Shown one piece after another: positions 15,655 to 18,942 of a DNA stretch of 64,000 nucleotides. Under the pieces are notes generated by a model. The model had not been told where the DNA came from. It saw only the letters and a program-made list of their open reading frames with translations, and did not search any database. Location of the stretch: the NCBI GenBank assembly GCA_000002435.2, contig CM018789.1, one strand, 5' to 3'. The first letter of the stretch is position 1. Each line of letters opens with the position of its first letter. The stretch is from Giardia intestinalis. Lineage: Eukaryota. The position numbers and the translations under genes are program-made.

Positions 15655-15840
15655 TTTTAAATCTCCATCTTAACTTGTTTTTTAAGAAGGTATTCAGTCC
15701 ATGTTTACAGAAGCCGGCCTTTTCTATACTATACAGTAGTCATCAATTAATGAACAGAATTATGTACTCATTTGGAGGTTTCCTCCTCTAGTGTGCTTAG
15801 ATACAACAAAGATGATTCATTTCACCAACCGGTTACTTCC

Positions 15841-15940
15841 AATACTGTGTTGTTGGGACCTCCGCCTGTGGACATGGCCCAAAGGTTCCACGAATAAGCC
15901 CTCGCTCAATTCCTGGCCATATCTAGAGAAAAAGGCTACT
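15841..15940. repeat. left arm of a long inverted repeat
   Basis: I reverse-complemented 16,861-16,960 in 10-nt blocks. Positions 15,845-15,940 match perfectly (96/96) and 15,841-15,940 match 98/100. Confidence 0.95.
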
Positions 15941-16860
15941 CGATGAGCACAAGGGCCCCCTCTAGTTACACAGAGGGACGACTAGAGACTCAACACAATT
16001 GTCACATACCACCTTCAGCTGTTAAGGGAATCAACACAGAACCGGGAACCAGATATTTGACTTATAGGCACGTATAAAATGATAGCTGGACCCATCTAGT
16101 CATCAGACGAACCAGTTACGGCGAAATATTCGGAAATACAGAGATAGAACATTCGTAATTATTTATGGAGCGAGCGATTTCTTCATCCTATATCCAGAGG
16201 CACCTTGAGAAACTCCGCGTGGTAACCAAACGAACACCTAACGAGATTAATCATAGGCTTTGAGAGCTAGCCTTCAGGGTGACTGAAGGAGGGAGAACCA
16301 CTGGCTACCCGAAGTTCTGAGGTATCCCCAAGCTCATAGCTTAGACAGACGACCATGGGACAAGAGAAACAACCACATTTTCACCAACCACTGTCACCCC
16401 CAATCCAAAGAGCCACAGCGATAGAAACCAACTAGACCCTAGAGGAAGGAACAACTATCGATAGGTAACGAGGTTCTGCATAGCGAACTACGGGCCCGCA
16501 GCATCCATCTGTTTTCACGGCGTTAGGATGGACTTTCGTAGGATTAGGGATGCCTTATGGGGTAAGAGACTATCGGTGGAATCGAAGTAGCAACGACGGC
16601 TACAGACAGAGGGGATAAAACGCTGTAAAAGAGGACATTGATGACCCGAATTCTCATCCATCATAGATAACAGACCAAGGAAGGAGGTGGAATTTATTAG
16701 TTACACGTGTTTGCAGAAAATTGGGGTCCCGGGCGAATCAGGCGTGCGAGCATCACCAGACGTGCATACCTGAGCCGAATGCACACACTACATAAGATCA
16801 CCAAAAAGAGTTGTATCCAGACGTACTAGTGAGAAGGAATCTCTTGTTACATTATTTACT

Positions 16861-16960
16861 AGTAGCCTTTTTCTCTAGATATGGCCAGGAATTGAGCGAG
16901 GGCTTATTCGTGGAACCTTTGGGCCATGTCCACAGGCGGAGGTCCCAACAACACAGCACT
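16861..16960. repeat. right arm of the inverted repeat (reverse complement of 15,841-15,940)
   Basis: Same comparison as the left arm. The arms are separated by a 920-bp spacer (15,941-16,860) with no ORF of 60 aa or more in any frame. Confidence 0.95.
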
Positions 16961-18292
16961 TAGATATAATCATAGCGTTAATACCCTCTCATGATTTCCA
17001 ACCCGTTTATGCCACAAAAGGAGAGATAATTATTTTCATGTTATATATAGACTGACGATACTTTTATTATGCTTGGTCTTCATAAGCAGCCAGTGACTTT
17101 TAATAGATATTTGGTTGTGTGGCATAAAACAACATGAGAAATACTAGCTCCGTTTCCTGCTTACAGTCGTTCGATCAGTTATAGCCTCGTGAGCATTAGG
17201 ACTCTGATGACATATCTTGTAAATGTTAGCCTCGAAATATCTGTTGATTTAGAAGACGAGAGACAACCCTATGTGTACCATCTTCTTGACTCCATGGGGT
17301 ATCCTTGTATACTAATCCATATATAAACCTGCCAGATAGATGGTAGAGCAGCTATTGTGGAGAGCTTACATAGGATCCTGTCTGCAGGCATAGTTCTGGG
17401 ATTTCACGAGTGAATTCCTTCATTTTTTGCTATCTCTAGAAACAATTAAGAGCTTCCCCCGCGACCTTGTACACCAAATCCGGTGCATCTTTAAATTCTT
17501 CAGATGGCACTCGTGTCTAACCTGAGTGAGTATGCTCTAATGGCACATATAGTTTTACTCCTTGTATGAGTCTGGCCCTTTCAAGAGCGTTAGCAGGCTG
17601 CGAGCACACATCTTTCTCAGACTCGGTAGTCTAGCTTTGGTCCCCCATCGTCCTCCTTATCTTCGGAGCATTCCCTGTCCTGTAAAACTGCACTCTATCA
17701 TCAGGGAGGCAAGGAGAGACTCAGAATTTATGAGTCGCTCTGTGGCGTTTATCCATCTGTGTTACTGGATTCTGGGCCCCCAACTTGCATTAGTAGCTCA
17801 GGAGTCGCATAAGCGTACCCACTTCCTTTGTAGCTTTATGTGGAGATGAAGCTAAATGGCTGCTAACAGGTCTGTGGATTCTTTTGGCAAGTTTGCATGT
17901 CGAATCAGTATGTTGTTAGGGATTTCGACTCCATATTCCTGTCTGGCCCGAATGCATGCGATGGCCGTTTTTGCCTTTTCACCGCTTCTACCTTGCTATG
18001 GGTTCTTAGCAGTCGATGTTTCTTCTTTTTCTCAATCGTTCTGATCACCCATGCAAGGAGCCCTGCTAACAGTTAGACGTACGTTGACAGTAGGCAATCA
18101 CTGGGTGGCCAGACTTTCAGCTCAGTCACTTCTGATCGGCTTCGTCGGATGCTCAGTTCGTGATCATCATAAGGCTCGAAGTGAAAAGCTTCACATTGTG
18201 TCGTTTATAATCCTCGTCTTCAACATAACTAATATAAATGGAAGTTTGCTCATGTATTTCTGCATCTACTCGCAGGTAAAGAGTCCAAGACT

Positions 18293-18889
18293 TTACTTAG
18301 CCTCATCTAGTGACAGGAGTAAATTATCGTCAGTAACTGCGGAAATTTCCCTATCAATTTTTGCGGCGGGACACGGGCGCCCTAAAGTAACTCTACTTTC
18401 AATTATGGTTTTTCTCATTCTGGTAATACTCCCCTCACATCGCATATAAGCATACTGACGTGAAGGAGATGTAAAGTAAACAGGAAATTTCCCAGAGAAC
18501 ATGGTTATAGCAATAACACATCGATATATTTTCTCAGCTGATGGCGTTATTTGCGGTCCACCGATAATGGGTATAAACTTTACCGAGTAGAGCTTTGAAT
18601 CTATTTGGGGTGTCATTTGATTTATAGTAGTACTTACTGAGAGACGGATTTGATCTCTTTGGCGATTAGATAATACAAAACCTCTTATACGGCTGCTATC
18701 ATCTATGCCAAAAAACAAATGCCCGCCGTTGGTATTAATAAAGGCATTTAAGTAAATTTGGGAATATCTTCTAATCTCTCGTATAAGGTTCTTTGTATCT
18801 TGTAGTGCTTTAAACTCCGTCTCTTTATCCTCTTCGAAATCTATCAGGTCATCATAGCGGAGGGACTCTGGAAGGGGACGAAGGGTCAT
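18293..18889 (-). CDS. Schlafen / AlbA_2-domain-like protein (198 aa, single lobe)
   Basis: EEDKETEFKALQDTKNLIREIRRYSQIYLNAFINTNGGHLFFGIDDSSRIRGFVLSNRQRDQIRLSVSTTINQMTPQIDSKLYSVKFIPII follows the Schlafen-core / AlbA_2 layout (E-x4-EFK ... AFxNTxGGxLxxGVxD ... G ... P ... Y..F.P). The coding strand has an AT-rich upstream sequence. The ORF is visibly more AT-rich (roughly 40% GC by eye) than neighbouring genes. Confidence 0.6.
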   Translation of the reverse strand: MTLRPLPESLRYDDLIDFEEDKETEFKALQDTKNLIREIRRYSQIYLNAFINTNGGHLFFGIDDSSRIRGFVLSNRQRDQIRLSVSTTINQMTPQIDSKLYSVKFIPIIGGPQITPSAEKIYRCVIAITMFSGKFPVYFTSPSRQYAYMRCEGSITRMRKTIIESRVTLGRPCPAAKIDREISAVTDDNLLLSLDEAK

Positions 18890-18942
18890 CTAAATTTCAG
18901 TAAATGTTGATGAACTTTACATAAACAGTATACAGTAACAAA

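What the first reader, a model, noticed from the sequence alone, without database searches (positions are those of the whole stretch)
15655..18942. A 3.3-kb AT-rich, gene-poor island in an otherwise tightly packed region, enclosed by retroelement copies
Elsewhere in the window, intergenic spacers are typically 10-570 bp and genes even share stop-codon bases. Between the NEK start (15,654) and retroelement copy B (18,943) lie 3.3 kb that are visibly more AT-rich. They contain:
- the inverted-repeat module
- 1.9 kb (15,655-17,561) with no ORF of 60 aa or more
- a stop-depleted frame
- the Schlafen-like ORF

This is speculative. The window also encodes Argonaute and a ZNFX1/Hrr1-type helicase. 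A potential hairpin-RNA source sitting beside a Schlafen-type nuclease candidate and retroelements would suit a small genome-defence or regulatory neighbourhood. The adjacency may equally be the debris of repeated insertions.
Basis: inference. Interest (0 to 1): 0.5.

Follow-up and report, generated by a model that had tools for sequence, protein, structure and literature searches.

The report
Decayed gene remnants with small inversion
The gene-poor stretch in this Giardia chromosome is most likely wreckage: a shortened immune-type gene, a dead methyltransferase gene and a flipped 1-kb segment in a rearrangement-prone region, with no evidence that it is a genome-defence module.

Summary
The window is Giardia intestinalis WB, chromosome 1 (1.485 Mb). 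The gap is real. 15,655-18,292 (2,638 bp) holds no gene, Pfam domain, Rfam family or tRNA, and is three times longer than any other non-repeat spacer. "AT-rich" is mostly contrast with GC-rich flanks: the non-coding part is 44.4% GC, ordinary for this window.

- **Repeat boundaries.** The repeat shared with copy A starts at 19,577, not 18,943. 18,969-19,238 is a dead methyltransferase gene.
- **Schlafen-like ORF.** It is a genuine AlbA_2 domain with catalytic-type residues. Its relatives in other metamonads are 600-860 aa proteins carrying a P-loop NTPase. The WB gene keeps only the first 198 codons.
- **Relic signals.** DNA after its stop codon keeps coding-strand polarity and a stop-poor antisense frame in register with the ORF.
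- **Inverted repeat.** The 96-bp repeat is real and present in all assemblage-A isolates examined. Its arms differ by 2-5 uncompensated changes outside WB. The A/T strand bias flips within about 20 nt of the inner arm edges.

I read the repeat as the footprint of a roughly 1-kb inversion. The region lies near a VSP gene, NEK kinases and dead retroelements, a known kind of unstable, gene-poor Giardia region. A defence function is not supported; hairpin-derived small RNAs remain untested.

The parts
10833..13315 (+). Dead retroelement remnant, copy A (GC-rich, no intact ORF)
   Evidence: 99.76% identical to 19,577-22,058 and 95.4% to 57,582-59,047 in inverted orientation. Weak RVT_1 match around an AHADDTLIF motif in the + frame of copy B (E = 0.0038, below the curated cut-off). 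Related copies of 66-75% identity flank other genes in Giardia P15.
13597..15654 (-). NEK kinase with ankyrin repeats, intact; the real ATG is probably at 15,648
   Evidence: Pfam Pkinase plus Ank repeats. Member of a multi-copy subfamily with WB paralogs at 90, 84 and 78% identity. dN/dS 0.13-0.22 among assemblage-A isolates.
15655..15844 (.). NEK upstream spacer, T-rich on the + strand
   Evidence: Sequence reading and strand composition. 15,808-15,935 weakly resembles DNA just upstream of a P15 Schlafen-like paralog (63% over 128 nt, E = 5e-5).
15845..15940 (.). Left arm of the 96-nt inverted repeat
   Evidence: 100% complementary to 16,861-16,956 in WB. Present in every assemblage-A contig that spans the locus.
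15941..16860 (.). 920-nt loop: a segment with strand bias opposite to everything around it, read as inverted
   Evidence: AT skew +0.22 against -0.07 to -0.20 in the flanks. An unsupervised two-change-point fit places the breaks at 15,925 and 16,840 (log-likelihood gain 21.4). Codon models call the + frames sense-like here and the - frames sense-like in 17,553-18,292.
16861..16956 (.). Right arm of the inverted repeat
   Evidence: It carries G16883A and G16888A in two separate non-WB lineages, plus two more changes in isolate DH. None is compensated on the left arm.
16957..17552 (.). Non-coding DNA with no recognisable feature
   Evidence: No ORF, Pfam, Rfam or tRNA match.
17553..18292 (-). 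Probable decayed continuation of the Schlafen-like reading frame
   Evidence: The stop-poor + frame 17,553-18,446 lies exactly in the A1 antisense register of the Schlafen-like ORF and fits the A1 codon model best. All three - frames fit a sense-strand (S0) model best, and the in-phase frame scores highest. No residual protein similarity was found.
18293..18889 (-). 198-aa AlbA_2 (Schlafen-type) ORF: the shortened front end of an AlbA_2 plus P-loop NTPase gene
   Evidence: Pfam PF04326, E = 6.7e-11. Identical to XP_037901563.1. Residues E20, E25, K27 and D64 align with E205, E210, K212 and D248 of SLFN13. The predicted fold matches SLFN and SAMD9 AlbA_2 domains. Relatives are 600-860 aa.
18969..19238 (+). 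Methyltransferase pseudogene: start codon lost, frameshifts
   Evidence: tblastn with the intact L017 methyltransferase, aa 8-113, 37% identity, E = 7e-13. The SAM-binding motif sits in a different frame. The divergent arrangement and roughly 80-nt spacer to the Schlafen-like gene match L017.
19577..22058 (+). Dead retroelement remnant, copy B
   Evidence: 19,239-19,576 is GC-rich DNA of unassigned origin.

Best explanation
The island is not a functional unit. It is the decayed interior of an old gene block in a rearrangement-prone part of Giardia chromosome 1.

**Ancestral state.** A methyltransferase gene and an AlbA_2 plus P-loop NTPase gene (about 700-860 aa, NLR/SAMD9-like in layout) sat head to head.

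**In the assemblage-A lineage:**
- The methyltransferase lost its start codon and its reading frame. It now abuts a dead retroelement.
- The AlbA_2-NTPase gene was cut down to its first 198 codons. This ORF is still open and keeps catalytic-type residues.
- The DNA downstream lost all coding capacity.
- A segment of about 1 kb within that DNA was inverted. The inversion duplicated a 96-bp breakpoint stretch in opposite orientation, as expected when one break is staggered and filled in. This produced the inverted repeat.
- In WB the two arms were later made identical by gene conversion.

**Shown directly:** the pseudogene, the shortened domain layout, the absence of coding or known RNA features, the presence of the repeat across isolates without compensatory changes, and the strand-bias flip at the arms.

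**Inferred:** that 17,553-18,292 was once the continuation of the ORF, that the loop is an inversion and not foreign DNA, and the gene conversion in WB.
For: - **Identity and family.** The ORF is identical to a G. intestinalis WB protein on a 1,485,438-bp contig. An exhaustive profile search finds 744 relatives. The closest are metamonad proteins of 600-2,400 aa (Giardia P15, Hexamita, Spironucleus, Monocercomonoides, Paratrimastix, Dysnectes) with a Walker A motif and weak AAA_16 matches after the AlbA_2 domain.
- **Conserved adjacency.** In L017 an intact 213-aa methyltransferase and an 857-aa family member are divergent neighbours 83 nt apart. The window has the same arrangement with a broken methyltransferase.
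- **No function detected.** No Pfam domain in six frames, no Rfam family at E of 1 or less, no tRNA.
- **Relic signals.** A stop-poor antisense frame in exact register with the ORF, and sense-like codon usage on the minus strand downstream of the stop.
- **Inversion.** A/T change points fall at 15,925 and 16,840, against inner arm edges at 15,940 and 16,861. No target-site duplication is visible at the outer edges.
- **No selection on pairing.** Arms differ at 2 positions in five contigs and at 5 positions in isolate DH, all uncompensated.
- **Ongoing decay.** Some isolates lack 19,139-19,696.
- **Literature.** Giardia synteny breaks are enriched in NEK kinases, ankyrin proteins, VSPs and reverse-transcriptase remnants. 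Regions around VSPs are gene-poor, and WB has 306 annotated pseudogenes (PMC7000408, PMC3091692). A VSP gene lies at 7,608-9,896.
Against: - No residual protein similarity to the NTPase part of the family was found in the island by tblastn or by a family HMM. The "decayed continuation" rests on composition and frame statistics alone.
- A 900-nt relic frame without any indel is somewhat unexpected for old neutral decay.
- The NEK gene next to the family member in L017 is not the closest relative of the window's NEK. Synteny is therefore solid only for the methyltransferase-Schlafen pair.
- No outgroup with the un-inverted arrangement was available.
- The 198-aa ORF is intact in every isolate. 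Its dN/dS is uninformative (0.19 to 1.0 on 5-9 changes). It may therefore be a functional stand-alone protein rather than a remnant.
Confidence: 0.6

Rival explanations
1. The inverted repeat is a hairpin-RNA gene. Read-through or cryptic transcription yields a 96-bp double-stranded stem that Giardia Dicer cuts into endogenous siRNAs, giving the island a regulatory or defence role.
For: The stem is perfect in WB and folds as expected. Giardia has Dicer and Argonaute, the latter in this window. Transcription from cryptic A+T-rich promoters is promiscuous (PMC3610916). Endo-siRNA regions are reported in Giardia (Liao et al. 2014, as cited in PMC11080815).
Against: There are no compensatory changes: the arms carry 2-5 uncompensated mismatches in other assemblage-A isolates. 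The arms match no other sequence in the 64-kb window or in the fetched Giardia loci, so no target is evident. No Rfam family matches. The flip in strand bias is not explained by this reading. I could not place the window's genes among the gene identifiers listed for the published endo-siRNA regions.
Confidence: 0.1
2. The 1,112-bp module (15,845-16,956) is a non-autonomous DNA transposon or other foreign insertion with 96-bp terminal inverted repeats. Its distinct composition reflects a different origin.
For: Long perfect terminal inverted repeats and an interior whose composition differs from the flanks, with boundaries at the arms.
Against: No target-site duplication at the outer edges. No second copy in the window or in JGI metagenome contigs. 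No transposase remnant in six frames. The reverse-complemented loop has an A/(A+T) of 0.37, close to the 0.40 of 17,553-18,292, as expected for a flipped local segment. To my knowledge no DNA transposons are described in Giardia.
Confidence: 0.12
3. The island holds an unannotated functional non-coding element, such as a long untranslated region of NEK or of the Schlafen-like gene, or a lineage-specific long non-coding RNA.
For: The length is exactly conserved (2,638 nt) and divergence is low (0.2-1.1%) among assemblage-A isolates, lower than in the adjacent NEK coding sequence.
Against: As I recall from published A1/A2 comparisons (not checked here), the low divergence is about the genome-wide level between the A1 and A2 sub-assemblages. 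It is NEK that is unusually divergent (synonymous 5-10%). No homologous sequence was found at the related P15 loci. No structured RNA family matches.
Confidence: 0.1

Closest known systems
Gene-poor, synteny-breaking regions of Giardia chromosomes (VSP, NEK, ankyrin-protein and reverse-transcriptase-remnant neighbourhoods; Xu et al. 2020, PMC7000408; Jerlstrom-Hultqvist et al. 2010, PMC3091692)
   Same: A VSP gene, kinases, a NEK gene of a multi-copy subfamily, three dead retroelement copies, pseudogenes and low coding density lie together. Gene order is not conserved with assemblage E.
   Different: This locus has not been described in the papers I could read. It adds a shortened AlbA_2-NTPase gene and a 96-bp inverted duplication around a flipped segment.
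Inversions flanked by inverted duplications of the breakpoint (staggered-break model described for Drosophila inversions; recalled from memory, not checked here)
   Same: A segment with reversed strand bias is bounded on both sides by one short sequence in opposite orientation, with no target-site duplication.
   Different: It is much smaller (about 1 kb) than the classical cases. No un-inverted outgroup is available to prove polarity.
SAMD9/SAMD9L and NLR-like STAND proteins with an AlbA_2 effector domain; mammalian Schlafens
   Same: The ORF has the AlbA_2 fold and the E-x4-E-x-K...D residues of the Schlafen RNase site. Full-length metamonad relatives add a P-loop NTPase, and in an oxymonad also leucine-rich repeats.
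   Different: The WB protein has a single AlbA_2 domain only. It lacks the second lobe of the Schlafen core, any helicase and any NTPase. No activity has been tested.
Hairpin-RNA (hpRNA) endo-siRNA loci of animals and other protists
   Same: A long perfect inverted repeat in an organism with Dicer and Argonaute.
   Different: The loop is very long (920 nt). There is no evidence of expression, no conserved pairing across isolates and no identifiable target.

Membership tests
Schlafen / AlbA_2 domain (PF04326) | Significant match to the AlbA_2 profile | tested here: met
   E = 6.7e-11, 43.2 bits against a cut-off of 25.3, covering profile positions 1-116 of 118.
Schlafen / AlbA_2 domain (PF04326) | Catalytic carboxylate triad and lysine of the Schlafen RNase site (E205, E210, K212, D248 in SLFN13; residue roles recalled from the SLFN13 structure paper) | tested here: met
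   E20, E25, K27 and D64 align to these positions and are invariant in the six-sequence alignment.
Schlafen / AlbA_2 domain (PF04326) | Two-lobed Schlafen core followed by linker and helicase domains | tested here: not met
   The protein has 198 aa and a single AlbA_2 domain. The fold match covers only one lobe, with TM about 0.5 on a model of mean pLDDT 64.8.
Metamonad AlbA_2 plus P-loop NTPase family ('AAA-4 domain proteins') | AlbA_2 domain followed by a Walker A NTPase and a long C-terminal region (600-860 aa) | tested here: not met
   The ORF stops after residue 198. Neither tblastn nor a family HMM finds the NTPase part anywhere in 15,400-19,000. The N-terminal domain is 42-45% identical to full-length members.
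Hairpin-RNA / endo-siRNA locus | Long inverted repeat able to form double-stranded RNA | tested here: met
   96 nt, 100% complementary in WB.
Hairpin-RNA / endo-siRNA locus | Pairing maintained in evolution (compensatory changes) | tested here: not met
   2-5 arm-to-arm mismatches in other isolates, none compensated.
Hairpin-RNA / endo-siRNA locus | Transcription and Dicer-sized small RNAs from the arms | not testable with these tools
   No read data are accessible. The primary endo-siRNA paper (PMC4191773) is not held.
Terminal-inverted-repeat DNA transposon / MITE | Target-site duplication flanking the inverted repeats | tested here: not met
   The flanks read ...CCAATA | arm ... arm | CACTTA..., with no direct repeat.
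Terminal-inverted-repeat DNA transposon / MITE | Multiple copies in the genome | tested here: inconclusive
   No second copy in the 64-kb window or in JGI metagenome contigs. The rest of the Giardia genome could not be searched.
Non-LTR retrotransposon remnant (GilD-like dead element) | Reverse-transcriptase homology | tested here: inconclusive
   RVT_1 E = 0.0038, 17.4 bits, below the 29.6-bit cut-off, over the YxDD-type motif region only. The intact ORFs in the copies give no Pfam match.
Non-LTR retrotransposon remnant (GilD-like dead element) | Copies share a 3' end and differ by 5' truncation | tested here: met
   Copies A, B and C end together near 13,315 / 22,058 / 57,582. Copy C starts about 1 kb further in. 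No poly-A tail is seen.
Inversion with breakpoint duplication | Strand-asymmetry reversal confined to the segment between the repeats | tested here: met
   Change points at 15,925 and 16,840. Loop AT skew +0.22 against negative flanks.
Inversion with breakpoint duplication | Outgroup with the un-inverted order and a single copy of the repeat | not testable with these tools
   No orthologous locus outside assemblage A was recovered.

The most novel reading that the evidence does not exclude
The 96-bp inverted repeat may be transcribed and diced. That would make this the first hairpin-type endo-siRNA locus described in a diplomonad. It would sit next to a stand-alone AlbA_2 RNase domain salvaged from an NLR/SAMD9-like gene, with gene conversion keeping the stem perfect in WB.
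Probability: 0.08. Interest if true: 0.55.

Novelty: new member of a known kind. Interest (0 to 1): 0.2.

Why it matters
The island itself matters little. It is one more example of gene decay and small rearrangements in the variable, retroelement-littered parts of Giardia chromosomes. It does serve as a caution that an inverted repeat beside "defence-sounding" genes need not be a system.

Two side products may be more useful:
- A cleanly delimited micro-inversion with a breakpoint duplication, which can serve as a structural marker for assemblage-A lineages.
- The observation that Giardia and other anaerobic protists carry a family of AlbA_2 plus P-loop NTPase (NLR/SAMD9-like) genes. I found no paper discussing these.

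Tried and rejected
- **Decayed NTPase remnant.** tblastn with five family members and a 16-sequence family HMM against six frames found only the AlbA_2 part.
- **Any decayed domain.** Pfam on all six frames of 15,655-18,292, with stops masked, found nothing.
- **Known RNAs.** Rfam at E of 1 or less over 13,000-22,500 and a tRNA scan of the whole window found nothing.
- **Bacterial origin of the Schlafen-like gene.** Rejected, because its nearest relatives are metamonad and other protist proteins.
- **Orthologous locus in assemblage E.** Three P15 loci were fetched (L016 NEK, L018 full-length family member, L019 350-aa member). None is collinear with the window beyond the gene itself and retroelement pieces.
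- **NEK as a synteny anchor with L017.** Rejected, because other NEK paralogs match L017's NEK better.
- **A 198-aa homolog as evidence for a conserved short form (P0261).** Rejected. It has a 36-aa N-terminal extension and runs off a 998-bp contig.
- **Other copies of the repeat arm.** None in the window or in JGI metagenomes.
- **Published endo-siRNA regions.** The primary paper is not held. Only gene identifiers were available from a later paper's supplement, and I could not map them to this window.
- **The GilD paper.** Not held, so naming the repeats GilD rests on memory.
- **Other internal repeats in the island.** Only chance-level 14-22-nt matches.
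Full report
**Where we are.** The 198-aa ORF at 18,293-18,889 (minus strand) is identical to XP_037901563.1 / KAE8301344.1 of Giardia intestinalis WB. It lies on a contig of 1,485,438 bp, the size of chromosome 1 in the 2020 reference. Large ORFs in the window include a VSP (7,608-9,896), kinases, a NEK kinase (13,597-15,654), an SF1 helicase (25,497-29,792) and Argonaute (50,321-53,023).

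- Between the NEK start and the Schlafen-like stop lie 2,638 bp with no stop-free frame of 70 codons or more from 15,790 to 17,553.
- Apart from the three spacers that hold the GC-rich repeat copies, the next largest spacer in the window is 814 bp.
- The AT-richness is modest. The island is 43.2% GC against 49.2% for the window, and about 4% of 3.3-kb windows are as low.
- The non-coding part, at 44.4%, equals many genes here. The contrast comes from flanks of 63% GC.

**The flanks.** Self-comparison gives three copies of a GC-rich repeat:
- A: 10,833-13,315.
- B: 19,577-22,058, 99.76% identical to A and in direct orientation.
- C: 57,582-59,047, inverted, 95.4% identical, and shorter at its 5' side.

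They have no intact ORF with a Pfam match. The + frame carries an AHADDTLIF motif with a weak RVT_1 hit (E = 0.0038, below the cut-off). The three copies end together. Related copies flank other genes in assemblage E. "Dead retroelement" is therefore reasonable. Calling them GilD rests on my memory of Arkhipova and Morrison 2001, which I could not read.

18,969-19,238 matches residues 8-113 of an intact 213-aa methyltransferase from locus L017 (37% identity, E = 7e-13). In the window the start codon reads TGG, and the SAM-binding motif lies in another frame. It is a pseudogene. 19,239-19,576 remains unassigned.

**The Schlafen-like ORF.**
- It is a true AlbA_2 domain (Pfam E = 6.7e-11).
- It aligns to the SLFN13 and SLFN11 nuclease lobe with E20, E25, K27 and D64 at the positions of the catalytic residues.
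- A moderate-confidence model (mean pLDDT 64.8) matches Schlafen and SAMD9 AlbA_2 domains best.
- An exhaustive search finds 744 relatives. The nearest are metamonad proteins from Giardia P15, Hexamita, Spironucleus, Monocercomonoides, Paratrimastix and Dysnectes, followed by other anaerobic protists.
- Full-length members are 600-860 aa or more. After the AlbA_2 domain they carry a Walker A motif with weak AAA_16 matches, and in Blattamonas also leucine-rich repeats.
- The WB ORF stops shortly after the AlbA_2 domain. It is open in every assemblage-A isolate, but the few substitutions give dN/dS anywhere from 0.19 to 1.0.

**The 2.6 kb in between.**
- Nothing known is there: no Pfam domain in six frames, no Rfam family at E of 1 or less, no tRNA, and no similarity to the missing part of the family.
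- Two statistical relics exist.
- A codon model trained on the window's 22 genes assigns all six frames of the Schlafen-like ORF correctly. It classifies the stop-poor frame as the stop-poor antisense frame A1. The frame sits exactly in A1 register with the Schlafen-like ORF.
- Second, all three minus-strand frames of 17,553-18,292 look sense-like, and the in-phase one scores highest.
- I take this as modest evidence that the ORF once continued downstream.

**The inverted repeat.**
- It is real. It appears in independent short-read and metagenome assemblies of other assemblage-A isolates, and short-read contigs typically break inside it.
- The NEK-to-Schlafen spacing is 2,638 nt in all of them.
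- Outside WB the arms are not identical. Five contigs share G16883A and G16888A on the right arm. Isolate DH has five arm-to-arm mismatches. None is compensated.
- The two shared changes occur in two separate non-WB lineages. The ancestral arms therefore probably already differed, and WB homogenised them.
- A two-change-point fit to the A-versus-T sequence of 15,000-18,900 made no use of the repeat. It places the breaks at 15,925 and 16,840. The inner arm edges are 15,940 and 16,861 (log-likelihood gain 21.4).
- The loop is A-rich on the + strand (skew +0.22), while NEK upstream, the rest of the island and the Schlafen-like gene are T-rich. Codon models agree that polarity flips in the loop.
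- There is no target-site duplication and no second copy in the window or in JGI metagenomes.
- The simplest account is a roughly 1-kb inversion in which one staggered break was filled in, leaving the 96-bp stretch at both ends in opposite orientation.

**Comparisons.**
- Locus L017 is a 38%-GC Giardia-like organism from run SRR17450158. It has methyltransferase (minus strand), an 83-nt spacer, then an 857-aa family member (plus strand), then an ankyrin protein and a NEK.
- The head-to-head methyltransferase-Schlafen pair is thus ancestral.
- The NEK there is not the closest relative of the window's NEK, so I do not count it as synteny.
- In P15, the NEK most similar to ours (82% nucleotide identity) has a retroelement edge about 70 nt upstream and no island.
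- In P15, a full-length family member is bracketed by inverted retroelement copies, and a 350-aa member runs into GC-rich sequence.
- No locus outside assemblage A is collinear with the island.
- Some assemblage-A isolates lack 19,139-19,696, so the block is still eroding.
- Among isolates the island differs by 0.2-1.1%, while the NEK coding sequence differs by 3-4%, with synonymous divergence of 5-10%. The outlier is NEK, probably through exchange with paralogs, not the island.

**Context from the literature.** Giardia has a mean intergenic length of 477 bp and 306 annotated pseudogenes. Synteny breaks at NEK, ankyrin-protein and VSP families, reverse-transcriptase remnants are present, and regions around VSPs are gene-poor (PMC7000408; PMC3091692). 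Transcription from cryptic A+T-rich promoters is common (PMC3610916). Low-level double-stranded RNA from the repeat is therefore conceivable but would not by itself show function.

**Verdict.** The defence-neighbourhood idea does not. The best reading is gene decay plus a micro-inversion in a known type of unstable region (confidence about 0.6). A hairpin siRNA source, a mobile element or an unannotated RNA remain possible at about 0.1 each.

**Limits.** I could not search whole Giardia genomes or any read data, and I found no outgroup for the inversion.

Noticed in passing
window 13,597-15,654 compared with L007 and L011: Among assemblage-A isolates the NEK coding sequence has synonymous divergence of 5-10% and many multi-nucleotide codon changes. 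The adjacent non-coding island differs by only 0.2-1.1%. This suggests gene conversion from the 78-90% identical NEK paralogs.
   Followed up: partly
P0105, P0260, P0110, P0115; loci L017, L018: Metamonads and other anaerobic protists carry a family of AlbA_2 plus P-loop NTPase proteins, with leucine-rich repeats added in Blattamonas. The layout resembles SAMD9 or NLR immune proteins. I found no paper linking Giardia and Schlafen-type genes.
   Followed up: partly
L018 7,013-9,755 and 12,917-15,355 (Giardia P15): The full-length 837-aa family member GLP15_3371 is bracketed by two copies of the same dead retroelement in inverted orientation, with their 3' ends facing the gene.
   Followed up: no
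window 10,833-13,315 and 19,577-22,058: Copies A and B are 99.76% identical direct repeats 8.7 kb apart, while copy C is only 95.4% identical. This points to recent duplication or conversion. One metagenome scaffold (L006) joins the two copies as if the unit were circular, probably an assembly collapse.
   Followed up: partly
window 19,139-19,696 compared with L006-L010: Five contigs from other assemblage-A isolates lack this 558-bp stretch, which spans the 3' part of the methyltransferase pseudogene and the first 120 nt of copy B.
   Followed up: no
window 15,900-15,926 and 16,875-16,901: All five arm differences between WB and isolate DH are C:G to T:A transitions relative to the WB state. 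There are too few to test, but a deamination bias on hairpin-forming DNA is conceivable.
   Followed up: no
window 15,808-15,935 compared with L019 9,853-9,978: Weak similarity (63% over 128 nt, E = 5e-5) between the left arm plus 37 nt of its outer flank and the DNA immediately upstream of a P15 Schlafen-like paralog. It may be a shared promoter-region relic or chance.
   Followed up: partly
window 50,321-53,023 and 53,271-55,973: Two adjacent minus-strand ORFs of exactly 900 aa are unrelated: Argonaute (Piwi domain) and a CFAP58-type coiled-coil protein.
   Followed up: yes
window 14,459-14,534: A 9-nt tandem repeat (TCTGACTCG, about 6 copies) lies inside the NEK coding sequence.
   Followed up: no
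L004 and L005 (runs SRR22734122 and SRR22734120): Two short Logan contigs end 29 and 190 nt past the Schlafen-like stop codon. If these runs are RNA-seq, that would indicate an expressed mRNA with a short 3' end. The library type could not be checked.
   Followed up: no
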